From positions 89,962,001 through 90,026,000 of the forward strand of contig OX597816.1 in NCBI GenBank assembly GCA_951406725.2: a stretch of DNA of 64,000 bases, given 5' to 3'. Made by a program: the position numbers and the translations under genes. Below, in pieces: positions 366-45,851 of this stretch. The first letter of the stretch is position 1. Each line of letters starts with the position of its first letter. This DNA is from Octopus vulgaris. Lineage: Eukaryota. A model generated the notes under the pieces. The model searched no databases, was not told the DNA's origin, and saw only the letters and a list, made by a program, of their open reading frames with translations.

Positions 366-604
366 GTAAATCCATAGACCAAAACATGTATTCGAAGTTG
401 GAACTTTTTGAACGTATTTTTCCTCTTTATTAATACGAAATAGACAGATTAAGTACGATTCTATAATTAAATTTTTAATTACGATTACTATGATGCTATA
501 TATGGAATAAATTATCCTCCTTACAAGAGTTTAAAGGAATGAAGCAATTAAATTAACACTGGTGTAATAATATTTTCTTATAATACAATATTGTCAAAGC
601 TTAC

Positions 605-800
605 CTGCTCCGGGATATGAATACATCAAAATATCATCAGATCTAATTTTTACTGTATTCAGTTTAGGTAAAGCAGTTGCAGCTATTTCTAAATAAAGAA
701 TATTGTATCCTTTATATTGATAAACAGGCAAAGGCTTCCCGTCTTTGCCGAAAAATTGTTTAAAATTAATTCCGGTTTCTTTTATTTCTTCAGAAGCCAT
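605..800 (-). CDS. Cytosolic sulfotransferase (SULT family), first coding exon; gene continues off the left edge
   Basis: MASEEIKE...KIRSDDILMYSYPGAG matches the SULT N-terminal R-x-DD(I/V)...YP(K)xGT PSB motif. The exon ends at G|gtaagc (phase 1) exactly in that motif. Confidence 0.8.
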
Positions 801-1124
801 GTTCTGTTCCTTATTTATGGCTGTTGTTGATATATGAATTGTTATCGTTAGTTTTAAACTCTAAAGCTTAGTAATAATATCCTTGTGAGAATGTAATTTT
901 CTGTTCCTTCGCACAGAGTGAAACAAAAAGCAACTGGGAGGATGCCTTGCCTTGTGTGTGTGGATTCGTGTTTGTGCATTAATTATGTAATGCATAGATT
1001 ATTTTATATTTATGTGCCTATGTGCACAATTTTAGAAATGAACCAGGCTTTTCTTTAGCCTGTTCGGTTTATCTATCGTACTAGACACACACAAGCGCAT
1101 GCACGCATACACACACACACACAT

Positions 1125-6558: not shown

Positions 6559-8947
6559 TCCTAGATATATTTGGTCTTGGAACTTTTGAATTCACAAGAT
6601 TTCATTCTTACATTCTATGAACTGTTGCAAAATAATCTTTCAAAACATTTTATTTTTTATTTTTTTACATTCCAAATATTAATTCTTGTATTAAACAGTG
6701 AACTTCTTAGATTTTCTGCTTTACCACAAAAGACATTTGTGAAGAATATTTTGAAGTTTGATGATGGCACTGCTATTGATATTTTTATACAACTACATTA
6801 TGTGGTGCACAGAAAATGCAGTGAAATTTGTTTCATTACTTTTTTTTACCTGCAAGATCCATTGAGATCTGTTTTGTAGATGATTTCTTTTTTTTTTTCT
6901 CTCTACCAACAATAAAACTAGATCTTCATAATAATAAAACCTTTTTAAATTTCCTACACATACATTTGTCTCTATAGCTGCAGCCCTCTGAAATTCTTTT
7001 TCTTACAGGTATCAAAGTATAGAAGTTCAAGTTGAATATTACCAATATCAAAATCACAAGCATGAAGGTGTGGAAAAAATCTTAGGGCATTGCCCATACA
7101 TACACACGTCCCTGCTACATAATGAAAATTTATTTTAAATTTTGTTTACCAATCCTTCTTCCACATAACTGCAACCTTCTGCTACTCTTTCCTCAATACC
7201 TGTTTTCTACTTTAATTTTTGAAAGATTTCAAAATTAATATTAACAATTTTGACCTGTCAGCTTTCCCCATACTTAATTTAAGGTTTGAAAAGCACTGGA
7301 CATTGTACCTCAGACAAAATAATAAAATTATATATTGATATATTAATATCTTTTTTGTAGTTTCTCTATTTTGTGTATCAGTACCATTGTGTTGCATATA
7401 ATCATATCAAGGTAAGCATCATGATAAGATTATATATGTAAAGATTATATACATTATATAGCCATCTTTGCTGGCTATACAATATACATAATCTTTACAT
7501 TCAAGAAATATAAATATATATATATAGTATTCAAATCACTAGTTTTTTAAATTTATTGAAAAAGACTAAATATTTTATAGTGTGTGCATAGTGTTACAAT
7601 TGTTTTTTTGTTATGAAATATATATTAACCTCCTAGTCAGCTATATAGAAAATTCTAGTATTCTTAATTCTAAATTTGGAAAACATTCTCATTAATTTGT
7701 TACTAGCAACAGAAACAGTATTAACTGAAGTCAACATTCTCTAGCCTTCTACAGTATATCCATGTTAAGGAAGATATACAGAATGCTATTCTCAACCAAT
7801 ACTGCTTCTGCTGCCGTAACAAATTATACCTAGCCTACCAGCTATATGCAACATCAGTGATTTTTTTTTTGTTAATCGCTATTTTTCTATATTAGTTGAG
7901 GCTAAATTTGTCTCCATATGAGGTTGCTAGTGACTACTTGCTACTACTGACCCTCATAGAAGCAGAAATCTAAATTTAGCAATTCCACCACCACTGCTAA
8001 GCACTTTGTTGCCTGCTACTGATATACTTAGGTGCTCTTTAGCACTGTATGCCAATACAAGATGCTTTCTCAAAACAAATATTGCAGTTGCTTTCAACAT
8101 TGTAACCATGTTAAGTAAGATATAGAGAATGCTAATTCTCATTCATGCTTTATGACCATTTTCTTTTCTGTCATCTCCTTAATGGCATATGAGCTTTATT
8201 GATTAGACTAATGAACAAATCATCAGTTTCTGATGTAATAAATTAACTGCTAATTTCATTACATTAACAATGGATACCTAGTAATTTTGAATTCTTCAAA
8301 TACTAAGTGTTTAAGATGAAACTGATATTTTTTGTATATCAAAATGAATTATATTGATTTTAGAAAAACCAATCTTGAACTAATATTTTTAATTAATATA
8401 GGTATTCTTAACTAAAAGTACATATCAATAAAATTGTGACTCTAATTAACATACATTTTATTTCTTGAAGTGAATCTTTTTAAAAGAAATCTTTTTGTCT
8501 CTTTATTGAAGTCCTTCGCACAAAACTTCAACACTCATCTTCCCACAGCAAACTTATACAAATATGCAAACCTCTACAAATATAGTTCAAATGGATGATC
8601 ATTCACCTTGCCCAACTGATATAATTCATTAATTGAATAAAATGTTACGTATTGGGATGGAAAGCACTATAAAATAAGTTCTTGACAAGGTGAGTTAATG
8701 TGTGTTGATACCTGGCTGAAGCTATTTCAATGCAAAGCATAGCTAATGTTTAGAGAAAGGAGAAAAACCTCACCAATTTTCATTTGACCCACTTCTTAAT
8801 TATAAAGATTCTTTTCCTAGTCAAAAGCAAACAATATATTTGATACATCTTCAATTTTTTATGAAATATCATACAAGAAATTACATAAGTATAGATTATA
8901 CAGTGTATAATGTAGACACTATATTTTGGTTTTAACAACAAAAATAT

Positions 8948-8953
8948 TTTATT
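8948..8953 (-). terminator. Putative polyadenylation signal of Ku80
   Basis: AATAAA on the minus strand about 65 nt past the stop codon. Confidence 0.45.
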
Positions 8954-9018
8954 TCAATGTAAGAAAAAGTAAATTTAATGGAATTCTATATTCTTCAATA
9001 TAAACTGTTGACAGGCCA

Positions 9019-9033
9019 TCACATTTCATCCAA
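9019..9033 (-). CDS. XRCC5: Ku80 exon 19 (LDEM-stop)
   Basis: tttcag|TTG GAT GAA ATG TGA; completes the DDLLD tail. Confidence 0.85.
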   Translation of the reverse strand: MDEM

Positions 9034-12000
9034 CTGAAATTAAACAAAACATGCATTATAAATAAAAATAATTGTTTTTTACAAAAATCATTAATACACT
9101 TTTCTATTATTGGACTATAACATACACTAATATGTTATATTAAGGTGGCGAGCTGGCAGAAACGTTAGCAAGCCAGGCAAAATGCTTAGCGGTATTTCGT
9201 CAGTCTTTACATTCTAAGTTCAAATTCTGCCAAGGTCAACTTTGCCTTTCACCCTTTCAGGGTCAATAAATTAAGTACCAGTTGTGTACTAGGGTCGATC
9301 TAATCTACTGGCCCCACTCGCCCAAAATTTTGGGCTTTGTGCCTAGAGTAGAAAACAATGTTATTATATTTCGTTTTACTCTCCCCAGACACAACAGAAT
9401 ATTATATTTATCTTAAGAGGTCTAGTGAGAAATTTGATTCAGTTCCACTTCATAATAGGGAATTTAGTTTTTAAAAAACTGTAAAATATCTACTCCAAAG
9501 ACATAAGCTTATACAATAAATAATATTTCTTAAAATGCAATTTCAGAGTTCTGTGTAGGCTTTACAACTCACCAAATCATCTGCAGAGCCCTCCATAGGC
9601 TGATCTGGTTTTGAAGACTCTTGGCTATCAGATTTGTTTTGTCCTGCATTCTCTTCAGATTCTTTAGTATCATGTAAATTATCTGTGCCCGAGAAAAGAA
9701 TGATATTGAGAATCAGAATATTTCTTCTTATTAATAACAATCAATTTCCTATTCAAACAAAACTTTCTGACTGTAAGAAATTAAAAATGTAAAAATCAAT
9801 ACACATGAAACTCAATTGGTGAGGATCTGAGGCTTGGAAGTGTCATACTATAACAATTGAACTAAGTGTTTAACTTGTGACCACTTACAATTTGTGGAAT
9901 GTTACAAACTTTAATGTATACTTAGCTTTAATGCAACTTGAATTAATGTTGTATTGTTTAAGAGATTATGTTTTGTTATTGGAGTATTATTGATAGTTCA
10001 CTTTGTACTAAGAAGAAACATGATATAGAGAAAAGTTTAGAGGAAAAGAAATATTTGTTAACAATTAAAAAATAGTATGGAAGTGATATATTAGATCAAA
10101 CTGCTGATCTGCAAGACATTGTTTATGGCAGGCACAAACGTCACTAATGCTAAAGCAGTACCAATGTGAAAACACACACACGTTTGTGTGTGTGTGTGTG
10201 TGTACATATATATATATATATAGGGAGAGTTTACGAAAAAAACAAAAGACGAAGACAGGTGATATACAAAACAAACAAATGTATTAGTATAACGCTCAGG
10301 AATAGAAAAAGTCTTTTACGTTTTGAGCCTACGCTCTTCTACAGAAAGGGACACAGAAAAAAACAAGGAGAGAAAAACACACACACACACATATTTACAA
10401 TGGGCTTCCACATGGTTTTTGATGACCAAATTTCAATTACAAAGCATTCACCATACCATGGTTATTCTATAAGATATTCTCCCAAGATGCCAAACAATGG
10501 AATTGAACCCAACACCAAATGGCTACAAAACCAACTTCTTCATCACACAACCATGTCTAATCTTATTCAAGAAAATTATACTCTTTCTAGAAGTACACGT
10601 GTGTTAAATATCATTTGATAAAAAAAAAGATAATGGATAGAATATTCAAAGAGAATCTTCAACTTGACAAGGACAGGCAAGTAAATATCATCATCATCAT
10701 TTAACATCCCTTGTCTATGCTCACATGGGTAGGACAGTTTGACCAGAGCTGGAAAGCTGGGGAGCTGCGCCAGACTCCAGTCTGATTTGGCATAATTTCT
10801 ACGACTAGATACCCTTCCTAATGCCAACTGCTTTACAGTGTGCTGAGTGCTTTTACATGGCACCACATGGGCACTTTTACAAGGCACTGCCACAAGTGCT
10901 TTACACCACCAAAAGGATTGGTCTACACTTCTGCTGCAGAGTATGGGACTTCTTGAGTATATACAATTAATAGCCAGATATGAGATGAACAATTGCTTTT
11001 TACATCAGATTTTTTTTTAAACTTATATGTTCTAGCTTGAATACTCAAAAAAATCATTTGTTTGCAACAAGCTTTCACATTAACAACTATACTATAGCAT
11101 TCTTAAACAATTTTGCATTTATTTCCAATGGTAGAATGTACTATGGGAATGAATTTGCATTAATCTTTGGAGATGGTGTTTTCACAGTTAACCTCATTTC
11201 CTTATGTCAACCTGCCTGTGACATGTTCTAATTTCAAGATCATTTGTATAGTCTTAATTAAGCAAGGATAATATAATTTTTTAAGATTAATGAAACGAAA
11301 TACAAGACAACAGAAATTTTTTTTCACCTTTAAAATATTTCCCAGCAAGAACAAGTTGTTTGAAATCTTTTGGAGCATCATTGGGAGCCTGAAAGCATTG
11401 TTAAATAACAACATTTAAAGAAATCTTAGTAGTATATACAGAGAAAATAATTTGCTCAATATTGTTTATAAAAAGATTTACTAATATATGAATATTTACA
11501 AATCACTGAAAAATTAATTAGATTTAAACAATTTAGGTAATTACATTTGGATATGGAAAGTTGGTCTTAATCTCACTTAGGCCACACAACATAGGTCATT
11601 CTATAACAATTTCAAAATCAGTAAAAATCAAGTTCATAAATTTCTCAGGTTGTGGCACTTTGTGAATATTTCTAACTAGGGAGTTTTATACCTGCTATGT
11701 GGTATCAGAAAAGTTATCAGCACTATACTAAGTTACATCATTGCTAGGAAAAAAACAAAAATATTCTCTTTGCATTTTGGTAAGTAAATCCTGTTGTATG
11801 TTCATCTCTTCATACTGACTTTACGGTCACTAAAAGGCCCAAACAATTTACAAAAGGGACTGAGACTTGTGGAGATTTGCTGTACTTGACAAGACATGTC
11901 AAGCTAAGCAAAATCAGTTCATACATACATACAGGCATTCCTTTATGGCCATGCCCCCACTCTACCAGGTTGAAGGTCTTTATCTTGCAGGTGCTAGTGC

Positions 12001-15000
12001 CAAGTAAAATGCATTCACGCTGATGCCACATAAGGTGCTATGTGAACACACCCATACCAGTGGCACATAAAAAGCACATTCTGTAAAGTGGTTGGTGTTA
12101 AGAAGGGCATCCAGCTATAGAAACCATGTCAAAACAGACAATTGGAGCCTCTGACTGGCCAACTCTTGTCAAACCGTCCAACCCATATTCATCATGAAAA
12201 ATAGATGTTAAACGATGATGATGTGCTGGCAATAAAAAATCACAACCTACAATCATTCTCCAACATCACCTGACCATCACCAAGAAGAATCTTTGTGTGA
12301 TATACAGTCTCTTTCATTATGGGCTTTTATACAAAGGTTGTCAGCCAAATTTAGATTTTCAACTGGTCTCCTTGTAGTGAAAAAAATAGGAATATTCCGT
12401 CAGAAACAATGGTCATATTTACAGCTAACTTTACTTTCAAGTTCCATTCTTAAAGCAGATACATACACAAAGATCTTTGCCTAGATTTTCTTCTTTGTTC
12501 ACAACTATTCCCAAAACCACCAAACTGGTTATTGTTGTCCAAGTAGACAACTGCACTAGATGGTATTCCAGCTATCACTCTGAATAAATATGTTCTTGAG
12601 TTTTTCTCTTTTGACATTTTTATGTTGCTGTCATATCCTGCTTATAGTCATGTCCAATGACATTTACTTCTATAACTGTCAACACACCTCATTCAAATTC
12701 TGTATACAGGCTTTATGAGCCTCTAACTTCAAAACCTCCTACTCAGTCAGTATAGCTTCCTTGTAAAGAAACATCTTGCATTGGAGATTTGATCATTTAT
12801 TCACTTTCAAATATACTAAAATACAGGTCTATATATCTGAAGGGAACAAGCAAAAAAACCTCATTTCATCTATTTATGAATAATACACAGTCCAAACAGA
12901 CTTAGCAATATCAGATAATATTATTTAAAGAAGAGTCTCCATTTTCCCCAATTCCAAAGCTGTATTACAAAGGTTGTTTCTTCTTAAGTAAGCAACTGTT
13001 AATCTGTCTAAAGCATAACATATTCTAAATGAGAACTGTTTATATATATATATATATATATTGAGAACAGTGCATCCACCACATCCATGACACATACACA
13101 CTCTAAAATATATTACATTGAAACAGTACCAAAACTACATAATGCATTCACCCATCCTATTCCTGCACCAGTCTCCGTGTATAACCTCTATATTAAATAC
13201 ATTACATTTCTGTAACTTCTCTACAAATATATTTTAAGTTAATATTTTAAAATGTTAAAGCTCTTCCTTCATGAAAATTATTATTCTAATACACACAAAA
13301 AATACAACTGTAACTTATCTATTACCAGTATTTCACATTTTACAAAACCATGATTAAGAACAAATATATATATGATATTTTAAAGCATTTTACATCAATT
13401 TTTACTCACTAATTAAATTTGAATACCTTCACGTATTATTAAAGTGTCATGTTATAACTAGAGGATTGTTCAAAATATTTACAGTAAAGACTATATGGTT
13501 TTCAATGTAAAAATAAAAAATATCACAGAAAATATTTTAGTAATTCTTGATATTCTTAATAAAATACTAGTCCAGTTAATCAGACATAAGAATGTATATT
13601 CCTATTTAATAGAGAGCAATGAATCAGAAACAGTGTGCATTTCTTTACCTCCGCTTTCATTTGAGATGAATCCATATCAAGGCTGAAATAAAAGTAGTAT
13701 ATTCATTAACATTAAATAACATCTTTATTAAAATAATTAACATGCATTGATATTACTGGGATGCAATATTCCAAAATTTAGAATAAGAAATATAAATTAT
13801 CTACAGACAATCCAAAGATGAATTTGGGCTGGGGATAGTTTGAGAAAGACCATGAAAATGAATTTACAAATTCTGAAATTTATTATATGACAATACAGCC
13901 TTTATATAATTCACAAAAAATTGTAGAATTGATGTATCTATTTAAGATCGTCTCTCTCTCTGCATCAGTATAACAATCTTTTCAATACAAAGAATGTTTG
14001 ATAGTTGATTAAGGTTACTCAAACCTTAAAAGGCACATGAAATGTTATGAAATAATTTTTTTAATCCCAAATGTGCTATTTATGTAGCATTGAATTTTCT
14101 GATTATTCCCATAATTAAATTTAAATGGGTTCACAGATAAGCTTATGTATATGATAGTATAACTCTGTTAGGGTTGCTATCTAATTTGATAGCCACAAAA
14201 TATACAGTGGATATTGCAAGGCAATTGGCATGAATGTAAATTTCTCTGAGTTGTAGTGCATCTAAGCACTGTATACAGTAAGTTATGTGTTCTGAGTTCA
14301 AATGCCACCAAAATCGACTTTGCCTTTCATCCTTTCAGAGTCAATAAAATAAGTAACAACTGAGTACTGGGATCGATGTAATCTACTACCCACCTCCCCT
14401 TAAGATTCAGGCCCTGTTCCCATAATAGAAAGGATTGTTATTATTACTATTATCATTGAGTGAGAGAGCAGTGCATGCCATCAAAGTGACACTGGAATAA
14501 AATATACTAAGCCCAGTATACTCATCATGACTACCCGTCTGATAAGGGAACACAGGCACATGCATTACAACCATATGTGCGCGACATAGTGATCTCATAT
14601 CAAGATAAACAGTGCATGACCTTGCAAGTGGGGCCCAGTTAGAATTTTCTTCTGGTCGAGTAACCCATCCTGCTCAAAATGTCCCTGAATAAGGTTTGTT
14701 TAAGGATGTTGAGTGAACCACCCATGTTTCCAAAGGTGAATTATCCAAACCTCCAAGATTTCCTTTCAATACATGGCTATGATGCTCCCCCACTACTTCT
14801 GCTCGTGATCAGAGATGCACATATCGTCAGCCAAGGGACATGGTCAACTAATTATGGTCAAACAACTGACAAACGAATCTGTGGTATTGAGCAGAATATT
14901 TGCTGTAGCCCATCTTTTAAACCAAGACAAAACAATGTACATGATAACAATTCCCAACAGTTAAGATCAGAAGCCATAAGAGCCAGTCTGGTACTGCATC

Positions 15001-18000
15001 AGGGCAATTGTTGTTGCTGTTAGCGGCAGCGGCACCGCTGCCTGGCCCTCATGCCAGTGGCACGTAAAAAGCACCCACTACACTCTCAGAGTGGTTGGCA
15101 TTTGGAAGGGCATCCAGCTGTAGAAACCTTGCCAGATCAGATTGGAGCCTAGTGTATCCTTCTGGCCTGCCAGTCCTCAGTCAAACCATCCAAACCCATG
15201 TCAGCATGGAAAGCAGACATTAAACAATGATGATGATGATGTTTAAAATGTTTCCATCCTCTTTGAGACTTAGGAAGTCAGGACATCAGGATAACAGTTA
15301 GCAGGGTCAGAGAGGTTACTCTTCTTGAAAATGAGACACACCATCATACTTTTCTTAAGCAGAAGTAGATATTCTGGGACAGAGAAAAGTTGAAGAATTT
15401 ACTTAAGATATAATCTCACTTATGAGTACATCATTTAAAAGAGATTGCAAGAACGCTATCAGAATTGGTTGCCTTTTTATTTTTGACTAAAATAACTAAA
15501 CAAATGTCTAGACTAAATGACAGCACAGAAAAGGCAGTTATACAAAGTTATATAAAGCAATGAATCTGGGAGAGATTTTGCTATATCAGTGCATAGTGGA
15601 AATGAAGTTATAGTAAGCAACAAATGTAGCAACTTAATTGAAGAATTATAGAGAAGAGGATTCTGCAAATTTGGTAGAGATTTTTAGGTAAGATATCTAA
15701 CCAATTTTGGAGTCATAGTACTGTATGTAAAAGTACTCTTTGCTCTCAAATTATTTGTTTTCTCATTTATATGCTTGAATGATGAATCCTGGCCTACTAT
15801 TTTGAAGCCAAACACACAATACAAAACAACATCAGAAACAATAATAATTACAAAGAGAAAGTGTCTGCTCAATTGATGATGCACTTTTTATGGACCAATG
15901 CAAAAAGTTGCAATATGTTTTTAGTGAGATCCTGAAAGAAGTAACCAAGGTTTATTTAGTTAAGATATCCAAAGACAAAAGTACTGAAGGAAGTACAAAA
16001 GTACAAAAGTACAAAAGTACTGAAGGAAACTACATCTTGATCCAAATAAAAAATGGAAATAAATGTGTAGATGAAGTGCAAGAATTGTTTGAAATTCAAT
16101 GCATGTATGCTCATGAATACTGAGTAATGACTGAAAGAGTACACTTGTAAATATAAGAGGCTGAAATAGGGTTCTGAAGAAGGATCCCTGGAGTAAACAG
16201 AGTGCATAGCTCTGAGATCAGGGAGTCTCTCTAGGTTGAGTCACAACTCTAGTACTACAAACATGAGATTAGAATGTTACAGGAAGGAATCACAAGACAG
16301 ATTCTTCAAGCTCAACCATCTAACAAGAGACCTAGAGATAGACAAAGAACAAAATGGTTGGATATCCATAGTCTCAGTTGGTAACACTTGGGAATCCAGC
16401 CAGGAAGTTTAATAATGGTTACTTCTGATAGGACCCTACGAAGGAGATACTTGAGGACTCAACTCTTAAACCCCTCCCAGGGATAATGGGCAGAGAAGAA
16501 GGGTGGATGCAAGAGTATGTTTTGGAGGAACTGAGAAGAAATATTTTTAAAATATCAGTATTAAACTTACTTAAGATCAAACAGCTTTTCACCGGTCTTT
16601 TCTGTTTTATTGGGCTTCAACTTTTCAAGCTTGAAATTTTCTTTGATTTTCTCTACAGCTTCGTTATTTTCAAAAAAAGAAACTCCATGTTTAGTTGGCA
16701 ACTCAGGAATTGGTTTTGTAGGTTCTAGTACTCTTTGTTCAAAACACTGAGCCAAAATAACCAAAAACAAATTCAAATTAGAATTATTTTAATAAATCAA
16801 TAATATTAAGAATAATATTAAGAAAATACATTAATCTTTAAACAATAATAAAAAAAATAAAAAGTATCTTATCTGACTATTCTTATGAGCTATGTGCAGT
16901 TTCTTTCAAATGTGCATATTAATTTTAATATTCTTAAGAACATCTACATAATGTAATGTTTAGCTAATTAAATAATTTTTCACTTAGGAAGAACAAGACA
17001 ACATTAGCAACAGTTCATTAATAGTTAAGAGACCAAGACAATATTGGTTTCAAATGTTGGCACAAGGCCAGCAATTTCATGGGAGTGGGGTAAGTCAATT
17101 ACATCAACCCCCAAGGTTCAATTGGTACTTATTTTATCAACCTCAAAAAAGATGAAGGCAAAGTGGGCCCTGGCAGCATTTGAACTCAGAATATAAAGTT
17201 GGTGTAGTGATACTTCTGCCAGCTCACTGCCTGAGACCAAAACAATATTAACAGCAGCATTTTCTTTAATTTACTTTATTAAACAATTATACATTTACTC
17301 TACTCATTTCTTTCATTTTCTACTGCAAAAATACTGACTAAAAGCAAATCCTGCTGTAGATCACATTAATATCACATCAATTAATATTGATTTCGAATTT
17401 TGACACAAGGCCAGCAATTTCAGGGTAGGGGTTTAGTCGATTACATCAATCCCAGTGCTCAACAGGTACTTGTTTTATTGACCCCCAAAAGGATGAAAGG
17501 CAAAGTCAACCTTGGCAGAATATGAATGCCAAGCATTAGGACAGATGAAATACTGCTAAGCATTTTGCCCAGCCTGCTAATGATTCTGCCAGCTTACCAC
17601 CTTATCACATCAATTAATATTAAAGAGAAACATAAATTTAAGAATGAAGTAATAAACAAACATACCTGATAAAATTTCTGCAAAGATGGTGTAGATATGT
17701 ATTTTGTATTTAAAAATTTGTGTTTTCCTTCATTTCTAAATAAAAATAAAATATTTGATTTATCATACCAAAATATTATAACAAGTCAACAACAATTTCT
17801 GAAAATAAATCAGTTTCAGACAGTGAAGATACAAAGATATCTTATTTATACAATTAAAATATATTTCTTCACACAGCTTGTTGAGTGCCACAGACCGAAT
17901 CCATGGCTGGTGCAAAGTCCCAACCAGACCTAGGGTGACGTGGTGCTGGTGGTGGAATGATGTTGTAGGCAAGACCATTAGAGTGAAGAAACAGGCCTAG

Positions 18001-21000
18001 AAGCACTGGAAGAATTGTTGTAGCAGAGAACTATATCAGACAGCTAGGAGGGAGGCTAGAAGACAGGTATACTTAACCAAGGGAGATGCAGAAAAGAGGA
18101 AGTTTGCCAATGTTCTGCTATGTGAGGACAAGAGGCTTGAGGTATTTCGGATTGCAAAGCAAATGTGTCAGAGAAAATCGGGATGTGGTAGGAGAGAAAT
18201 GTATTTTTGCATGGCTGATGGCTCCCTTGCAGTTAGTAATTCTGCAAAGGAGGCTTGGAAGTGCCACTATGAAAGGTTACTAAATGTAGAGAATGCAGGA
18301 GAGGACAGCCTAGCCTGCCTAATGTGGACACAACAAAGGGGCTGGTTATTCAAATTGACAGTAGCTTAGTAGATGAAGCAATTGAGGATATGAAGATAGG
18401 GAAAGCTTCCAGCCCATCAGGAATCACTGCTGAGATGCTTAAAATATTTGGTGGAGTGGGGTATGACCTGTACATTGATTCTGCTGACAGTAAGCTTTCA
18501 CAATCTCATATTCTTTCTATGACAACCTTTACAAGTGACATCTTTATTTCTCTTACTTTACATTGTCACCAAGTGCAAAGGCACTGGTGCCATTCCAAAC
18601 CTATTTCTACCTAACTATATCCCAATTCGTACACCAACAATTTTACAATACAGAATACCATCTACCTCCTTTCTTGATAAATAAGCATTTCATATGTTAA
18701 TATTGTTTATATATCAGGACTACATAATACCATTAATAAGAGAGTTCTCTATGTAATTGCTGAACCTGCAAGCAATAGCAGCCAAAACCTTCCTTAACCC
18801 TTCAGCATTCTGATTGCTCTGTCAAATGTAATGCTTATATATTCACATTTTTTGAATTAATGATGCATTATCTCATAGCTTTGAGACATTGATGATACCA
18901 TTGTTTACTTTTACAATGATATTGTATGCGTGAGAGGGTGCATCAGGCCAGTTTACATATAAAACAGGTAAAATATTTGGGCCAGATATGACCTGTTTAA
19001 ATGCTAAGATGTTAAACCACACCCTGAAGTCTTTAAAAAATTAACATACTGGTCAATATGATTCTAGATAACACATTTTCTGGCATACAAGTCAAATTTT
19101 TCAGACCAAAATTTACAGCCAAAAAATGGGAGATCAGTTTATACACCAAGACAACTTTGAAGGACTACAACTTCCATGTGAAATGCAGCAGGATTTGGAA
19201 AGGTAGTGACAACATTTGAGTGTTTAGACTACATGTTTACATTATATTCTAATACAGTATATAAAAAGATAACGGTTGGAAATTCTTTGATCATAGATCT
19301 CCTCAATCAGGACTACTAAGGCTTCAGTAGCAAGAACTATTTAAACCTTAATTTTAATAAGATTAAAGTACAAAGTATAATTACTCACGAAAATGTCATA
19401 GTGTCAATCAAGTTATCCATAGCCTCCAGCTGTGCATCTGTAAAATGATTTAAATGTAAATAATTATACCATTCAACACTTCATTAAATATTGGGTTGTC
19501 CGGAAAGTTCGTGCCGATTTATAGTAGCTTACCTTTCGACTTATTTTAGAACATGGTTGAGTCCATAAAATAGGATTTGACTACACCTCCATTTTAAGCT
19601 ATCTTTTCATGGAAGAAGGTTTATGTTCCTATAACTTGTGTTAATTTTGTAACCCTTTAAAATGGAAGATAAGAAAGTTCATTTTCGGCACTTGATGCTT
19701 TGGGAACCACACAAAAATTGCTGCAGCTCAGCTGGGATGTGTTATCCGACCCTCCATATTCACCAGATATTACTCCTTCGGATTTCCACTTATTCAGGTC
19801 TCTGCAGAATAGTCTTAATGGTAAAAATTTCAATTCCTTGGATGACATAAAAAGATACCTTGATGAATTCTTTGCCATGAAACCACCTCAATTCTGGGAA
19901 GGGAGTATTTTCAAGTTAAAAGAAAGATGGAGACACATTGTGCAACAAAATGGTCCATATTTGGTTGATTAAAAAATGTAATGGCAAGTATTTATTGACC
20001 TTTTTCTTTCTTTTAAAAATCGGCATGAACTTTCCGGACAAACCAATATTTATATTAATTCAAAAAATATCAGCTAACATTATCAAAAACTACATTAAGT
20101 GAGCTTTTAAGTAGCTGCTTAACCAGCTAAAAATATAAGTCAAATTTCTCTCAAAACACCCCCCACCATCTTTAAAAAAGAGAAGACATAGTCCTGGATA
20201 TATATACAAGAAAGTCATAGCTGGAACTCCTTTGAGCATAGGTCTGTTCATACAGGACTGATCAATAACTAAACAACACTAAAGGATTCCAAACTTACTT
20301 GATGGTTTGAACTTCTTCGGATTGTCACAGCTATCCACTGGAAGTGGGTCAAATTCACAATTAAGTATGTCTTCAAAAAATGGTAATTCGTGATATATCA
20401 TACACTGAAGAATTGAAAGAAAAAAGAAATCAAATTACATGTAAACCACAATAAAAATATAAATTAAATGAACTATGAAAGTGTTGTTTGCAAGAAAAAA
20501 CCGAGAGAGAATATTTAGTGGATAAAAGAAAAGCTGTAATAGAGTAAAACAGACATGGTGCAGTGAGTAGAAATGATTGTTATACAGGTACAAAAACTGA
20601 TAGGTTATAATAACAAATTCAAACACTGGAACAATGGCATAGAAAATATTTAAATCAGAAAAGAATAGAAAAACGGATTGACAGAAACAATGATAATAGC
20701 AACAATGGTAATGATAATAATTAAACATTAAAAAGAAAACTAGAAATATAAAAGCACAACTCAGCATTTAGTATTTACTGCAGTATATGCCGTTTGTATT
20801 AAAGACTGGCCTCATGCCGGTGGCACGTAAAAAGCACCATCCAATCGTGGCCGTTGCCAGCCTCGTCTGGTCCCCCGTGCCAGTGGCACGTAAAAAGCAC
20901 CATCCGATCGTGGCCGTTTGCCAGCCTCGTCTGGCACGTAAAAAGCACCCACTACACTCACGGAGTGGTTGGCGTTAGGAAGGGCATCCAGCCGTAGAAA

Positions 21001-24000
21001 CATTGCCAGATCAAACTGGGCCTGGTGCAGCCTTCTGGCTTCCCAGACCCCAGTTGAACCGTCCAACCCATGCTAGCATGGAAAGCGGACGCTAAACGAT
21101 GATGATGATGATGATAAACCAGGTACCGAGAAACATTCTCAATCATTGAGAAACCACAAGTATAAAAAGAACTTTGGAATGTAACACGTGAGATAGTCGA
21201 GGGATTACTGTAATTAAAATGTATGTAAGACATTAGCCTATGTATTCAATGATGTAAAAATGGATATGTTTGGTACAAAGGTATTTCAAATTGAATATAA
21301 AAGGTAAGCTAAATGAAATAAACTGGGATTTAAAAGGTCTTTACATATGAAATAACATAAAAATCATGTCCTCAGAAAAAAAATCTACATTACAAACTCT
21401 TCCTCTATAGAGAAACAGACCTACTAATGATGACAACCAGTCATTATTAGAAAGAATAAATCTCCCTTACCTCATAATCATTTTTGATATGTGGTTTAAG
21501 ACAACCAATTCGAGGTCCTGAACGTGCATCATAAACTCTTCTTACAATAGCAAGCATATTAGTTTCAAATAATGCATTAACCAAAGCTGAGAAAGCAACA
21601 GATGTTACCTTTAGGAAGGAAAAAAAAATAACATTTACATTTAGTATAACAAAAACGTCATTTGAGATAAAAACAAAAAGAATAAGTTAAAAACAAAATT
21701 AACATCAATAAAGAGAAATTAAGTGACTATAGATTGACGCATACATATAGATCTTTAAGAAAATACACCCACAACTTATAATAAACATTATATCTTTTTT
21801 TTCTTACTCAACCCTCCTCACTGTCTTATCACTCTCTAACTCTTACTAAAAATCTGATGCTACCTTTCACTTCCCTAACAATGTCCGTACCCTCTCTCAA
21901 CAATAAACCTGTGTAACCCCAATAAAATCTGTCTTGAACCTTAATGAACCATCCAACCCATGCTGACATGGCAGATGGACTGATCCATTCCATTACTGGA
22001 TCCACCTACTCAACCCACCTCATTACCATTTCCACTTTGTCCTCTCCCTCTCTTTTTCACACTAACCTTTAACATTACTTATCATCTTCACATCTCCAAC
22101 ACTCTTACAAGGGTGTACCAAAGAGAAACTGGAGTTTTACATTATTTTATTCACTTAGTATTACATGTTTACACTTTTATCACCTTCAGAGTATTCCCCA
22201 TTTGAAACAATGCATCAATCCAGGTGCATTTTTCACTTTTCAAAGCAGTCCTGAAACTTTTGCAAAGTCATGCCTTTTTTTCTTTACCTCTTCTACATTT
22301 GCAAATTCCATAGCACTCGCTTTCGTCACCAGTGATGACCTTCAAAAAAATGTGACTGCTTTTGGTCTTCTGTGAGCAAGCAAGGTACGAATTTTGCTGC
22401 AACTCTAATCATTCACAATTCCCTGCTCAAAATTCATTGGCAGGAGCTCCAGGACACACCAGTCACATCAACAAGTTCATCAATTGTTCAATGCTATTCC
22501 TCCAAGACTAGTCATGAATTTTTGCAATGTTTTCATTCATTCAGGAGGTTGATGGTCGCCCTAAACAAGGTTTATCTTCAAGCAAAAAGTCACCATTCCT
22601 AAAGTGTGAACACCACTTGTAAACCTGTGTTTTGCTCATGACAGCATCCTTGTAAGTTGTTTGAAGCTTGACAACTGTTTTCCCCAGCAGAAAACAGAAT
22701 TTCACAGAAGCACATTGTTCCTTCATTACAGTCTTTGCAAAAATCGACAAACAGGGGAGAAGTACTGCAAAACAAAGACGCACCACATAGCAGCATGACT
22801 CCACCCAGTGACACTGGTTAGCAGACTGATACCTGAGGGTCACATCAAGTGGCTTCTAACAGTAAAAGCCTGAACTACAATGGGCTTGTCGCACAGAGAA
22901 TGTTCCTGGTTACTTTTGGTTACCCTCTTGCACTTCTGTTATTCTCCTCATTAACATCCTCTCACAATAAATTTATTCCTTTCTACCATCCTCCCTTTCA
23001 CTTCCCAAGCTGCATGGTGACCCCAACTGCTGGTGCCACAACAAGCACCTACTACACTCTGTTTGGTAATCAATTTAAACAGTGACAACTCAGAGCTGAA
23101 GATGGCTCTTTCATGTTGCTAAATGTAAGGCAATCTCTATAGTGCTGATACTACAAGAAAATGTATCCAGTACACTCTGTAAAGTGGCTGCTGTTATCCA
23201 GCTATAGAAACCTTTGACCACTGAATCCTGTTGAATTATCTGAAACATGCCAGCAAGGAAAGCAAACATAAAATGACAATGGTGGCAGTGATGATGGCAC
23301 CAACAGTGACAACAATGATGAATTTTTAATTATAATCTGAATCTTCAGAGACGAATTACTTTATTATGAAAAGAAAAATATTCATTTTTTTCAATTATAC
23401 CATCATGTGCATTTAAATGCTGTGCAAAACACTTTTATCATTTACAAATGAAAACGTTTTGTTTTAATGGCAATAATTACAAAAATATTAAATAACATAC
23501 TTGATCGGTTGGTTCTGCTATTACATACATAGTACTATCTCCCATGTAACTATAAACTGGAACCTGCAACAACAAAAAAAAATAATGCAAATAATTTCAC
23601 TTTTTAATGATTCTCTTAACAACATATCTTTTATTTTTTTTACTTATTTCAGCCAGACTGCAGCCATGCTAAAGAACTTTAGTCAAACAAATCAACCTCA
23701 GTATTTACAGTGTACTCCCGCTTATTCTTGGAACTGGTAACTGTTCACGGAAACCACCACATATTCACAGAATCGTAAATATTGTCCGCGATTTTTTATG
23801 GCAATATATACTTTTCCACACATTTTAAGGCTAAATTATTAATAATAATATACCGTATTTGCCAGTTTATTGGACATCCCTTGACAGCTGAAGATCCCTC
23901 AGATTAGAATAACCGCGCATCACATCGCTCAATTTTTTTAGATACAAGTACACAGTATCATATATCTCTTATTCTTGCTTTCAATCAAAGCATGCTAATT

Positions 24001-27000
24001 AGTATAGCAACTACCAGTGCATTTTTTAAATTCATCACTACATTTGATTATAAACAATGTTTATTTCAACAGGATAATTTTTAGGGTCGTGAGGCAATAT
24101 AGCCTCATTGAAATCAGGTTACTTGCTGGTCCCTTTCTCTCTCTCATTATTATTATAGTATAGATTATATAGTATGTAGTATATGGTGCTTTCGTTGACA
24201 ACATAATAGCAACCTACTGCAGTGTAACTTTTACCTTCCCAGAACATATCCAGCAGTTGTGCCTTCTCATGGAGCATCATAACCTTTTTCTGGCACATAG
24301 GTTCACTGCCAGAACTCTTAGAAGGTGTAGGACATTCAGGTGGCATCTTAGGGCTTTAATAACATGCTGCAAAAAACACAGCACTCAACAAAATACTGAA
24401 GATAGCTACTGGATGCCATTTACAAGCAGGTGGCCAAAGCATCATGGTTTGGGGTGTTACAGACCTGAATCAGAGAACTGGGCCCCATGTGTTCCAAAAT
24501 GTTGGTGCAGGCAGAGGGAATGGCATCACAGTGCAGCGCTATGTTGAGCAGCTCCTAAGACCTCATATCATGCTCTTCTTCACACATCAACATAGCCACA
24601 TGTTCCAGCAGGACAATACTCCCTCCCACATGGCTAGGGTCACCATGAACTTCCTGCGTCACCACAATATCAGAACCAAGCCATAGCCAGCTCTCAGCCT
24701 GGATTTGTACCCAATTGAACACTTGTGGGATGAAATCCAAAGTCGGCTGAACCAGGTGGTCCCAAGGCCGACAACTCGTGTGGAACTGGAGGCAGTTTTA
24801 CTCAGGGTGTGGGCACAGGTGCCAATGGCTTTTGTGAACCACTTCATGTACTCTATGTATGGCCGTTTTGAACACCAAGTCAGTGCATACACAGTATTGA
24901 ACATATCACGCCCTACAATCTCCATGTGTTGGATCTGCCCACTACCATAACACATGACAACAACCCATAGACTGTGGTCAAAGTGCATCTAAGAAATTGA
25001 CTTTATCAGATTTATCAAAATTTATCTCTGACTAATGAAACTAAAACATTTCACAGTCACATATGTTTTGCATTTCTTTTGCAGTTCAGTGTATAATGTA
25101 GGTATAAAAAAGGAATGTTAGAGAAGATAAAGTGAAGAATAATGAAATGCAGTTTGAATTTATGACAGGAAGATGAACAGCTGATACAACTTTTATTGTA
25201 AGGCAATTGAGCCATAAAGGAACCTATGTGTGGTTGCTTAGGAGAAGAAGAATGCAGTAAATTAACATTTTTATAATAAAGTTATATTTGATAATATATA
25301 ATTATATTTGATAATATTCATTGTTTTAGTCTGGGTAAGCATTAGTGCCCACCTTGTCTACCCAGATGACACATCCCTGTGAAAAAGCTTACATAAAACC
25401 AAGACTTTGTATTTAAAAGTAAAACTCAGGGTAAACTACTGCAGCAAAGCTTACATCTGATAAGAGTAAGTTACTAACAGTTTTACTTACATTTTCCTTG
25501 GATGTAAAACCAAGTACTGTAAAACATTTTGTGCTTTTATATTTTTCACTCATTTCAGAGATAGGAACAAGAGTAGAGCCATAGTAAAAACCTAAGAAAA
25601 AATTAAAATATGTCATTTCATGACACAATAGAACAAAATATTACATCACTTTACAGCACAATAAAATATTCATACATTAAGATTGTAAAATGATTTTATA
25701 AATTAAATCTTTCCTGAAAAGAAAATATATCTTTTGAAAAATACTGAATTTAAATTTCTAAAACAAAGAAAAGGGTTATTGTATAGCAACCCTCTTCTTT
25801 GTTGTACTTTTAATATCTTTCTCCAAGTTGAAATGACAAATACATGTGCATAAAACAGCCCAAGTGATCTATTTCATTTTAAGTCTTTTTCTGCTACATT
25901 GTGTGCACTCTCTACAACCAAAGCACATCAATTCTACAATACCACTCCATTACATATCATCACAGTTACCCCTTGCATATATCAGGTAATACTTTTAATA
26001 ATCCAGCTCTTATACTCCATGTTTTGCAAACAACTTGCACATGCAAGTGCTACCAGTTGAAAGCTCTGCATACTGGAAGCCAACAAGTGTATGGGGTCAT
26101 CAGGAGAGAATGCGTGCTATTTCAGGGCCTACATCTCGATGGCATCATTGCACACTGGCCCCCACCTCATTGATATGTGATCCCACTTGCTAGATCAACT
26201 GGTTATCAAATAAAGCTCAATATTCTTCTAGCCATCACTCATCTTTTTAACCAAATCCAGTGGCTAGCCTTTTCCACTGCAGTTTGGATATTGGTCATGG
26301 CAGTATTTACTTTACTATGAATTAGGCCTAACAATAACAACAGTCACCTCACACTGTGTCCAACAAATTCTCTACATCCAACTTCGATTGGAAAATGCTC
26401 TGCTTTCCAGTCTGCACCTTCACATTTCTCAAGGAGGTTTACATAACGGTTAGTCTTTCAAGCCCAAGCAGCATCCATGTTATCTTTGTGAGATTACAAT
26501 TATATCACAATCTGTTGTGTATAAGAAATATCAGCTTGCTTGGAAACAAACAGAGATTGGTGACAAGAAGGGCATCCTGCTATAGTAACTCTGCATCAAT
26601 GAATTCCATCTGACCCATCCAAACAAAAAAAAATGGGCATTAAAACAATGATAGTGGTAGTGGTCTTTATGATAAAATTTCTTGCATGTAAACTTAAAAA
26701 TAAAACCCAAAATAGCAAAATTACCAGGAACAGTGTCTTGGTACTCAATTTCTGTTTCATTTTCATCATTCAAATGCAAAGTTCTTGATTCTTTGAGTGC
26801 AGCTGCTTGATCATTAGCAAAAACTTTCTTCCAGCTTTGAGCAGGCTTGTAACCTTTCAACTAAATGAAACAAGAGAATAAACAAAGTTGAATTTCGTTC
26901 AAATAATTAGAATAGTTGTTAATAAAGTTCAGTCAATAAATCATCTAAATTCAATTAATAGTAACTAGAGCTAAAAATAACTGGTAAATTAATAACAAAG

Positions 27001-30000
27001 TATGAACATCAAAGTAAATACTCTACACCTAGTCTGTTGTCATATAGTCATGAGTTCAAATCCTACTAAGGTCTTCTTTATTTCTTCAGGTTTGATCAAA
27101 CAAGCCTTATTTTACTGAGTATCAATTTATCACCACAATGGCACCTAGAGTTACAGAGGAGCTTGGGGTTGGATCTAACTTCAGGTGACTTATTTTCTTA
27201 CGCTAATGTGAACAAATATTTTAAAATGCATATCAAATACTCAAGGTCTAAATCTAATTATTATTACCATCGTTTAACGTCCGCTTTCTATGCTGGCATG
27301 GAGTGGACGGTTTGATTGAGGACTGGTGAGCCAGAGGCTGCACCAGGCTCAATATGATGTGCCAAAGTTTCTACAGCTAGATGTCCTTCCTAATGCCAAC
27401 CACTCCAAGAGTGTAGTGGGTGCTTTTACATGACACCAGCATGAGGGCCAGTCAGGCAGTTCTGGCAACGACCATGCTCAAACGGTGTTTTTTACGTGCT
27501 ACCTGCATGGGAGCCAGTCCGGCGGTACTGGCAATGACCACGCTCGAATGTTGTTTTTCACATGCCACCGGCACATGTGCCAGTAGGGCAACTCTGGCAA
27601 TGATCACACTCAAATGGTGCTTTTCACGTGCCACCGGCACAGGAGCCGATCTGTGGCCCTGGCAACGATCACGCTCGAATGTGCTTTTAACATTCCACTG
27701 ACACAAGTGCCAATCAGGTGGTACTGTCATCAGCCACGTCAGCAATCTGCTTTATCCATAAAAATAGACTATACTCATTGGGTTCCAAATAAATGGAGTA
27801 TTAACTCCTGTAAAAGATTCCTGCACACCAGGAATATAAAACTCGATAATGGCTTGAAATTTTTTCATTGTTTTCAAGTGCTAGTCAGCTATGTTTAACC
27901 CTTTCATTATTAGATTTTTTTTTAGATGCTCTGGGTTTCTTTCAATTAATTTTAAATATAATAAAGAATTTAGTAAAATAACTTAATTATCATTAAGCTA
28001 AAGTTAAGAACATAAATTGGGACTAAGGTTTGATGGAAGATTTTAATTCAGAACTTATGAAAAGATGTTTGTACCACAGAGCCAGAGGCGGTTTCAGCTG
28101 GTTTGGTATCAAAAGGGCTAAGTAAACCTATCACTCAAATGTAACTGATATGACCCTTTACATACAAATGTAACATTTTTAATGCGATACAGTGAAATGC
28201 CAAGTTTCAGTCCGGTTCTGGGAGAAAATTGTATGCTACATTATACAATGATTGCTTATGTGAAGTGTATATTATCCATTTCTTTGCATTCTAGGGTCGT
28301 TTAAGATGTCTATAAATGGTAAAAATATATTAATATGGGTTTGTAACCCAGCAAAGAATTTATGTAGGTGTTATAAATGTTTTTATTATCATCAACATTT
28401 AAAGTCCATTTTCCATGCTGGCATGGGTTGGGCGGCTTGACAGGAACTGGCAAGGTCAGGGACTGTACCAGGTTCTATTGTCTGTTTTGGCTTGGTTTCC
28501 ATGTCTGGATGCCCTGCCTAATGCCAACCACTTAACAGATTGAACTGGGTGCTTTTTGGATTTGCATCATGTCAGTCATAACTCCTCACCCATACTGAAG
28601 ACAACCCATCTAGGAAGCTGGACACACCAAACAAACGCAGCAGTAAATGAGAAAATGAAAGCAATATTACATACCAAAATTGGATTATTACCTTAATATA
28701 ACCACAAATTGGAATTGAAAGATTGCTACCAATTTCCAGATTACATTTCCATGCTGAGGAACTATGGTGTTTTGTAAAGACATTTGGTCTAGACAATGCG
28801 TCACTGCAACAAATAAAACAAATATATAAGACTGTGTTAAAAAGAAAATGTTTAAAACAATTTATATAAGCTAAAAACTTAGATTGGGATGATGTAGTCA
28901 CGTTATCGAAAAAGACACCTATCACATCATCCTCATCGTTTAACATCCACTTTCCATGCTAGCATGGGTTGGACATATGACTGAGGGCTGGCGAACCAGA
29001 TGGCTGCACCAGGCTTCAATCTTGATCTGGCAGAGATTCTACAGCTGGATGCCCTTCCTAACGCCAACCACTCCGAGAGTGCAGTGGGTGCTTTTACGTG
29101 CCACCGGCACTGGGCCAGTCAGGCGGCACTGGCAACGACCTTGCTCGAATCTTACCCATATATAAAAAATGCCTTCAAAGCACCAAGACACTCAAAACAG
29201 TAGATGATTAGCCTAATATCAGAAATAGATATCCTCCTGGAAAGAGCACCAGTCATTCACAAAAAACATCATCCCAGGACCCTATAACTTACCAACTTGA
29301 CCATTTCACCTTTAATAATTTGAGAAAACTAGGTACTTTAGAAACATGTACTACATCAATTTACAAAAATGTACTTTTGCACATCTTAAAAACAAATTAA
29401 TGAGTGAGTGAAGGAAGGGGTAGTGGATATATGAGATCTGATGCAATCTTGTGTTAATCAGGCAGTGCGATGGGTAAGTTGTACAAGGTACTACTACCAA
29501 CAAAGAGAACTCAATACAGGTTATTTGATGGACAAGAATTTTATTGAAGTAACTGGACAACTTTTATGCCTCTGAAGGGCCAGTGGTTTCATGCCAGTTG
29601 AAAATCTTCAAATTAATAAAACACTGAAGAACTGAAGATATTACAGTGTTCAAGAGGTGGGGGTAGAAGGTTTGTCTAAAGAGAGATGTGGGTATTGATC
29701 TATTTAATTTTTAGCTTACTTCAGTTTTGTTTTGATTTAGTTGGCTTTTATGTTTAGTACAGAAAATTTGAGTGCTTAATTGTGGCGGTATGTATATGTG
29801 TGCATCAACACAGAGCCACATTCACATCACTGACTATGCTCCGAAGAAACTATTTCAATTATTTAAAAAGCACCATTCGAGCGTGATTGTTACCAGCGTC
29901 GTCCTACTGGCACTTGTGCAGGTGGCATGTGAAACATCATTCGAGCGAGGTCGTTGCCAGTGCTGCTGGACTGCCTCCTGTGCAGGTGACATGTAAAAGA

Positions 30001-41713: not shown

Positions 41714-41757
<44 letters not shown>

Positions 41758-45547: not shown

Positions 45548-45851
45548 TCATCAGCATCATCGTTTAACGTCTGTTTTCTGTGCTACCACAGGTTGGACGG
45601 TTCAACCGGGTTCTGGGAAGCCAAGAGGCTGCACCAGGCTCCAGTCTGATCTGGCAGTGTTTCTACAGCTGGATGCCCTTTTTAACGCCAACCACTCCGT
45701 GAGTGTAGTGAGTGCTTTTTACGTGCCAGGGGTAGCTGGCAGCGGCCACAATCGGTTGGTGCTTTTTACGTGCTACCAGCACGGAAGCCAGTCAAGGCGG
45801 CGCTGGCATCGGCCACGTTCAGATGGTGCATTTTACATGCCACCGGCACAG
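45548..45851 (-). mobile_element. RTE 3' UTR with VNTR units
   Basis: (CAT)n tail, family terminus and 3 cores. Confidence 0.8.

What the first reader, a model, noticed from the sequence alone, without database searches (positions are those of the whole stretch)
9019..13682. Ku80 appears to have lost its C-terminal helical domain but kept the DNA-PKcs-binding tail
Seen: exon 17 (APNDAPKDFKQLVLAGKYFK, ends phase 1) splices in frame to exon 18 (phase-1 start, strong pyrimidine tract), which encodes a disordered acidic linker ending EGSADDL, followed by LDEM*. The 1.6-kb intron between them is about half repeat-derived, and I found no Ku80-like frame in the rest. The protein totals 590 aa. Established: human Ku80 (732 aa) has a globular helical C-terminal domain (about residues 590-710) followed by the EEGGDVDDLLDMI motif that binds DNA-PKcs. 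Inference: about 90 aa of the helical bundle were deleted and the preceding linker shortened, leaving a minimal core-linker-tail Ku80. This would be a natural test of what the helical domain does in NHEJ, and could matter for repair and transposon integration in a TE-rich genome.
Basis: partly seen in the sequence, partly recalled or inferred. Interest (0 to 1): 0.8.

Follow-up and report, generated by a model that had tools for sequence, protein, structure and literature searches.

The report
Octopus Ku80 lost its helical bundle
Octopuses and the paper nautilus make a version of the DNA-break-repair protein Ku80 that lacks most of a folded domain kept in cuttlefish, other molluscs and mammals, yet keeps the short tail that likely still recruits its partner kinase DNA-PKcs, so it would be a natural test of what that domain does.

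Summary
The finding is real. The window holds the only Ku80/XRCC5 gene found in the genome: 19 exons, all GT-AG, encoding the 590-aa Octopus vulgaris protein. Spliced contigs from 4 of 4 runs (4 studies) join exon 17 straight to exon 18. The same short C-terminus occurs in O. sinensis, O. bimaculoides and Argonauta. Cuttlefish and other molluscs keep the six-helix bundle, so the loss is octopod-specific among the sequences seen. One correction: exon 17 is helix 1 of the bundle. Helices 2-5 are gone (81 aa versus cuttlefish), likely through an in-frame two-exon loss, while remnants of helices 1 and 6 and the tail stay conserved. DNA-PKcs and Ku70 genes are present. A published O. bimaculoides DNA-PKcs model lacks a 7-residue loop (human 1722-1728) that lies inside the region where the bundle docks; it is the only one of 77 alignment rows read with that gap. 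This rests on one model and could not be checked in this assembly. Likely mechanism: tail-only recruitment of DNA-PKcs, with the bundle contact lost. I found no report of it in the library searched.

The parts
9019..44909 (-). Ku80/XRCC5 gene, coding span, 19 exons, 590 aa
   Evidence: unique GT-AG solution translating to P0003; all 14 genome matches of P0003 lie here
16571..16746 (-). exon 15, end of the Ku core (C-terminal arm, to residue 517)
   Evidence: PF03730 449-516, weak
13649..13682 (-). exon 16, shortened linker (34 nt)
   Evidence: linker 28 vs 48 aa in cuttlefish
11328..11388 (-). exon 17, residues 530-549; carries the retained helix 1 of the bundle (537-550, 12 of 14 identical to Argonauta)
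   Evidence: alignments; helix 64-73 of the cuttlefish model
9683..11327 (-). intron 17 (1645 nt), inferred site of the loss of two ancestral exons (helices 2-5); repeats at 10172-10558 and 10680-10954
   Evidence: spliced out in 4 of 4 runs; no coding remnant above shuffles; repeat cover
9573..9682 (-). exon 18, residues 550-586: acidic linker, degenerate helix 6 (9659-9642, six residues identical to Argonauta) and first part of the tail (9587-9573)
   Evidence: ungapped end-anchored match of 13 of 41 residues to P0004; tail profile 12.3 bits
9019..9033 (-). coding part of exon 19: last four residues of the DNA-PKcs-binding tail and the stop
8435..9018 (-). 3' untranslated region; AATAAA at 8507 and 8462
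   Evidence: contigs run to 8435-8477; signals

Best explanation
Octopod Ku80 has lost helices 2-5 of its six-helix C-terminal bundle, likely by an in-frame loss of two exons on the octopod stem, and likely still recruits DNA-PKcs through its conserved C-terminal tail while the bundle's own contact with DNA-PKcs is predicted to be gone. Shown: the transcript and protein layout, a single gene copy, the distribution across species, and the presence of DNA-PKcs and Ku70 genes. Inferred: the core still forms the DNA ring with Ku70, and the 66-residue, mostly disordered stretch 518-583 is long enough to carry the tail to the NUC194 site about 80 A away. Predicted from human biochemistry: Ku-dependent kinase activation on short or blunt ends would be weaker unless DNA-PKcs has compensated, while tail-mediated tethering would remain possible. 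Tentative: the partner surface changed too, since the O. bimaculoides DNA-PKcs model lacks a conserved loop within the bundle-docking region.
For: Junctions in 4 of 4 runs. Same layout in P0001, P0002, P0003 and P0137; full bundle in cuttlefish and other molluscs. The cuttlefish model has six helices at pLDDT above 90 and matches human 1RW2/1Q2Z. Isoforms and mis-spliced models of panda, Anolis, chiton and cormorant diverge at human-equivalent 611/612, 648, 680 and 728; this places two exons (71 aa in cuttlefish) between two phase-1 introns, matching the octopus phase-1 junction (inference). The last 9 residues differ from cuttlefish P0005 at 1 position. DNA-PKcs is present, and the exon covering most of the tail-binding site (human about 1917-1974) is 56% identical to P0141. 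The bundle docks at DNA-PKcs 1700-1830 and the tail at 1910-1970 (bioRxiv 2020.10.19.346148). The tail, not the bundle, makes the swap dimer (PMC13041557). The bundle is needed for full activation in vitro (PMC4433226). Octopus is the only one of 77 rows read with a 7-residue gap at human 1722-1728 (PMC8021618 supplement).
Against: No binding or kinase data exist for any octopod protein. The DNA-PKcs loop deletion rests on one RefSeq model; that part of the gene was not found in this assembly, and cuttlefish DNA-PKcs was not seen. No source read names 1722-1728 as contact residues (one search found nothing). Apart from the gap, that block is 14 of 39 identical to scallop (hand count), close to the protein-wide figure of about 40%, so it is not specially eroded. 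The Ku80 core also has a long octopod stem branch (0.79 vs 0.12) and further deletions, which fits general relaxation. Woods 2015 found the whole C-terminus dispensable for recruiting DNA-PKcs to DNA in vitro, which weakens the claim that the tail does the recruiting.
Confidence: 0.62

Rival explanations
1. Relaxed selection: DNA-PK signalling matters less in octopods, so the bundle and other parts eroded by drift and the Ku80-DNA-PKcs link is weak or vestigial.
For: Octopod stem branch 0.79 vs decapodiform stem 0.12 changes per site in the core; a further 20 aa lost in the vWA domain, 12 in the arm and 20 in the linker. Drosophila keeps a partial tail without DNA-PKcs (PMC8549938).
Against: The tail's last 9 residues are identical in the four octopods and nearly so in cuttlefish. 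O. bimaculoides DNA-PKcs is full length through the kinase end, and the tail-site exon is conserved. No genome-wide rate baseline was measured, so the long branch may not be specific to Ku80.
Confidence: 0.2
2. The remnants of helices 1 and 6 form a new mini-module or linear motif that keeps or replaces the bundle's contact with DNA-PKcs or the Ku core, so function is rewired rather than lost.
For: Residues 537-550 are 12 of 14 identical between O. vulgaris and Argonauta and a six-residue helix-6 remnant is identical, against 64% identity overall and poorly conserved flanks. AlphaFold places helices at 538-543 and 584-589.
Against: The model has pLDDT below 50 over 392-590, including known core, so it says little. 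The hydrophobic end of helix 6 is lost, and no look-alike was found.
Confidence: 0.15
3. Artefact: an assembly gap, a mis-annotation, a minor isoform, or a full-length paralogue elsewhere.
For: 130 lesser joints were not shown and contigs drop rare variants. This assembly does lack part of another NHEJ gene. A Tigriopus gene model shows that false bundle deletions occur (P0218 vs RefSeq P0290).
Against: Transcript contigs are independent of the assembly (4 of 4 runs); four species agree; the window has no N; there is one Ku80 locus, and the only other Ku-domain hit is Ku70.
Confidence: 0.03

Closest known systems
Human Ku80/XRCC5 (1JEQ core; CTD 1Q2Z/1RW2; DNA-PK 7K0Y)
   Same: vWA, beta-barrel and arm core (E about 1e-86 over residues 3-481 of the O. 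bimaculoides protein); acidic C-terminal helix motif; last intron at the same place as in a bird model.
   Different: No six-helix bundle (PF08785 absent); 56 vs 139 residues from bundle start to end; linker 28 vs 48.
Cuttlefish Ku80 (cluster of P0005 with Acanthosepion pharaonis P0125)
   Same: Sister group in the tree (100/100); near-identical tail; helix 1 recognisable.
   Different: 727 aa with an intact bundle (106 bits; six helices).
Ku80 of organisms without DNA-PKcs (Dikarya yeasts, flowering plants, C. elegans)
   Same: Naturally altered C-terminal region.
   Different: They lack the tail motif along with DNA-PKcs (PMC8549938); octopods show the reverse: tail and DNA-PKcs kept, bundle lost.
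Engineered Ku80 truncations core, core-linker and core-linker-helix (Woods 2015, PMC4433226)
   Same: They probe the same bundle and tail.
   Different: All are stop-codon truncations, so removing the bundle also removed the tail; no bundle-only deletion appears in the parts read.

Membership tests
Ku80/XRCC5 orthologue | Ku_N + Ku barrel + Ku_C core, closer to Ku80 than to Ku70 | tested here: met
   PF03731 87 bits, PF02735 121 bits, PF03730 weak at 17 bits, under its cut-off; all 9 PDB hits are Ku80
Ku80/XRCC5 orthologue | single-copy, with a separate Ku70 gene | tested here: met
   the C7:9078387 exon matches only XRCC6
Canonical DNA-PK-type Ku80 | six-helix C-terminal bundle (PF08785) | tested here: not met
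Canonical DNA-PK-type Ku80 | acidic C-terminal DNA-PKcs-binding motif | tested here: met
   sequence motif conserved
Canonical DNA-PK-type Ku80 | DNA-PKcs with a NUC194 domain in the same genome | tested here: met
   PF08163, 5 ordered exon matches on C5, best E 7.8e-21; middle of the gene not found in the assembly
Canonical DNA-PK-type Ku80 | tail binds DNA-PKcs and Ku stimulates the kinase | not testable with these tools
   needs biochemistry
Co-evolved Ku80/DNA-PKcs interface loss | partner loop deleted in octopods, intact in decapodiforms, and part of the bundle contact | tested here: inconclusive
   gap seen in one published model; not found in G000; decapodiform state and contact residues not seen

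The most novel reading that the evidence does not exclude
Octopods rebuilt DNA-PK from both sides: Ku80 shed its bundle, and DNA-PKcs shed a loop conserved from ciliates to humans that would be the bundle's landing site. The result is a bundle-free holoenzyme held by the tail and a retained helix-1 motif, which would pinpoint the human interface and show how the kinase can be activated without it.
Probability: 0.3. Interest if true: 0.82.

Novelty: new variant of a known kind. Interest (0 to 1): 0.66.

Why it matters
The separate roles of the Ku80 bundle and tail are unresolved because the truncations I read remove the tail together with the bundle. Octopods carry the missing combination, shared by Octopus and Argonauta, alongside DNA-PKcs. 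A human Ku80 built on the octopus layout, and a 1722-1728 deletion in DNA-PKcs, are direct tests. It may also bear on double-strand-break repair outcomes when editing octopus versus squid or cuttlefish genomes (speculative).

Tried and rejected
Complex prediction of a DNA-PKcs fragment (P0141 455-690) with a mussel Ku80 bundle (P0008 582-700): no answer, score 0.00, no evidence either way. The AlphaFold model of octopus Ku80 had mean pLDDT 51 and was poor even in known core, so it is not used as proof of disorder. PF20502 hit only an unrelated HEAT exon on C22. I first considered a huge genuine deletion in octopus DNA-PKcs, because about 1670 residues are missing between C5:38796770 and 38779904. 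I rejected it as a likely assembly gap: a 100-N gap at 38794448 and an 11-kb satellite lie there, and the O. bimaculoides protein is full length. Searches for that middle part elsewhere in G000 gave only chance-level hits; the PF20502 and PF20500 searches ran with a strict first look. No RNA holder was on record as RNA. No cephalopod Ku80 loci in metagenome contigs, no Atlas hit, no earlier findings. No Vampyroteuthis, cirrate or Nautilus Ku80 was identified, so the loss is dated only between the decapodiform split and the Argonauta-Octopus split. A Ku70 SAP domain was not found by a crude motif scan of 60 kb, which is uninformative. Artemis, XRCC4, XLF and LIG4 were not searched.
Full report
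Observation. The window is G000:C3:89962001-90026000. It carries a minus-strand Ku80/XRCC5 gene whose exons 2-19 have a single GT-AG solution, translating exactly to P0003, the 590-aa O. vulgaris protein CAI9719617; exon 1 lies at 44909-44895. All 14 genome matches of P0003 fall in this gene. The Ku barrel family gives one other hit, an exon on C7 that matches only Ku70 structures.

Transcript evidence. I laid 4 of the 24 listed runs on 8300-17800. Each has one contig of about 2.6 kb with joints 17666-16746, 16571-13682, 13648-11387, 11328-9682 and 9573-9033. The tool marks the 11328-9682 joint 'between: not known', so I used the contig coordinates: 95 letters separate exons 15 and 18 in all four (1843 to 1939, 1831 to 1927, 1871 to 1967, 709 to 805), which is exactly exon 16 (34) plus exon 17 (61). 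The runs come from four studies and two organism labels; their RNA status is the tool's guess, but the contigs are spliced. Rare isoforms are not excluded (130 lesser joints were not shown).

No hidden bundle. PF08785 is absent from P0001, P0002, P0003 and P0137 and present in P0004 and P0005 (101 and 106 bits). Neither PF08785 nor the cuttlefish C-terminal protein matches anywhere in the genome at E<=10; small exons in a 2.8-Gb genome are hard to find, so this is supporting only. A profile of the lost segment from 28 non-octopod proteins scores 109 bits on P0004 and P0005 (both in the profile) and at best 1.6 bits on intron 17, within the shuffled range. The scan is insensitive to decayed remnants.

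Distribution. O. vulgaris and O. sinensis (590 aa), O. bimaculoides (602) and Argonauta hians (611) share the short end. The cluster containing Acanthosepion (Sepia) pharaonis, an unnamed relative P0004, and the mussel, limpet, clam, abalone, oyster, Aplysia, urchin and vertebrate proteins aligned keep the bundle. Of the best 150 representatives (of 4604 hits) from a profile search, 140 reach the end of the core and 121 of these have the bundle at 15 bits or more. By inspection of the 19 without: two have a divergent bundle (11.6 and 14 bits), most are truncated or run into unrelated sequence, and three keep a tail without a bundle. These are Octopus, Argonauta and a Tigriopus model whose RefSeq counterpart is full length. 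The survey is biased to close, mostly animal relatives.

What was lost. With a primate Ku80 as proxy for human numbering, bundle plus tail is 137 aa in cuttlefish and 56 in O. vulgaris; the linker is 48 vs 28, the vWA domain 234 vs 214 and the arm 86 vs 74. The cuttlefish C-terminus folds into six helices at pLDDT above 90 and its top matches are human Ku80 CTD structures 1RW2 and 1Q2Z. Octopus exon 17 aligns with helix 1, and exon 18 aligns without gaps to helix 6, linker and tail (13 of 41 identical to P0004); helices 2-5 have no counterpart. Isoforms and mis-spliced models diverge at human-equivalent 611/612 (panda), 648 (Anolis and a chiton), 680 (Anolis) and 728 (cormorant), and an unnamed model (P0149) skips from about 611 to 680. 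I infer that two exons bounded by phase-1 introns (71 aa in cuttlefish) were lost in frame and about 10 more residues trimmed; no mollusc genome was read to confirm this. The remnants are conserved: 537-550 is 12 of 14 identical to Argonauta and a six-residue helix-6 remnant is identical, against 64% overall.

The partner. In cryo-EM the folded domain (595-706) docks on DNA-PKcs 1700-1830 and the last helix on 1910-1970 (bioRxiv 2020.10.19.346148; passages and section 8). The tail sits about 80 A from the core (PMC8376411; passages). A review states that the tail, not the bundle, forms the swap dimer (PMC13041557; passages). DNA-PKcs is present on C5, and the exon for human about 1917-1974 is 56% identical to P0141 and 35 of 56 to scallop by hand count. 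In PMC8021618 (passages; supplement file 1 part 5, file 10 part 34) the O. bimaculoides model XP_014778357 is full length, but it is the only one of the 77 rows I read in that block with a 7-residue gap over human 1722-1728. An FP-type motif there is present in 64 of 77 rows by my count, and the block's last rows were not read. The passages of that paper that I retrieved do not discuss it. Against over-reading: it is one model; the region was not found in G000, where the gene's middle coincides with an N gap and a satellite; cuttlefish DNA-PKcs was not seen; no text I found names these residues as contacts; and the rest of the block is about as diverged as the whole protein (14 of 39 vs about 40%).

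Mechanism. Shown: layout, expression of the short form, distribution, partner genes. Inferred: normal Ku ring, with the tail reaching NUC194 on a 66-residue linker whose contour length exceeds 200 A (own estimate at about 3.5 A per residue). Predicted: loss of the bundle contact would lower Ku-dependent activation on short or blunt ends, because human truncations lacking bundle and tail gave 0 to about 75% of wild-type activity on most substrates while removing the tail alone cost little (PMC4433226; parts 1-3 of 6). That paper also found the whole C-terminus dispensable for recruitment in vitro, whereas PMC8549938 (passages, section 7 part 1) and PMC10657183 (passages) treat the tail as the direct binding motif that co-occurs with DNA-PKcs. 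Rivals are general relaxation (octopod stem branch 0.79 vs 0.12; no baseline) and a rewired helix-1 motif.

Novelty. Searches for Ku80 + octopus + C-terminal (6 papers listed, none on this by title and abstract start), cephalopod + NHEJ + Ku80 and Ku80 + helical bundle + internal deletion + DNA-PKcs found no report. The library lacks most subscription papers, including the primary Chaplin, Buehl and Weterings papers (names of the latter two recalled), so an engineered bundle-only deletion may exist in print. Also seen as passages only: PMC9935390, PMC8224183, PMC9006396, PMC6990542. The short proteins already sit in public annotations without comment. Verdict: a real, lineage-wide new variant of Ku80, with an unverified but striking matching change in DNA-PKcs. 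Interest 0.66.

Noticed in passing
G000:C5:38779734-38809015 (L009-L012): PRKDC in this assembly jumps from about residue 196 to human-equivalent 1917 across a 100-N gap (38794448) and a 338-bp satellite of about 34 copies (38781414-38792804); about 1670 residues were not found, likely an assembly gap.
   Followed up: partly
PMC8021618 supplement file 10, O. bimaculoides XP_014778357: 7-residue deletion of a loop (human DNA-PKcs 1722-1728) conserved in most eukaryotes aligned; it lies in the Ku80-bundle docking region.
   Followed up: partly
window 13649-13682 (exon 16): The basic cluster in the linker of primate and non-cephalopod mollusc Ku80 (the nuclear localisation signal in human, recalled) is missing in octopods and weak in cuttlefish; import may rely on Ku70.
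   Followed up: no
Ku80 core, tree: Octopod stem branch 0.79 changes per site vs 0.12 for the decapodiform stem; further deletions in the vWA domain and arm.
   Followed up: partly
Argonauta cluster: P0137, P0006, P0138: Three neighbouring accessions on a contig of the same length: one full and two partial Ku80 models, suggesting a local duplication or haplotype redundancy.
   Followed up: no
window 597-860, minus strand: Open frame resembling the N-terminus of a cytosolic sulfotransferase (recalled resemblance); no Pfam hit at E<=0.01.
   Followed up: partly
window 45686-47007, plus strand: Frameshifted LINE-type reverse transcriptase (RVT_1, E about 2e-10) starting about 0.8 kb upstream of the Ku80 start codon.
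   Followed up: partly
window 62207-62911, plus strand: 235-aa acidic open frame, probably an exon of a divergently transcribed neighbour; no Pfam hit.
   Followed up: partly
PDB 3ISM chain C: The cuttlefish bundle model also matches a chain of the EndoG/EndoGI complex (prob 1.00, rmsd 2.7 A).
   Followed up: no
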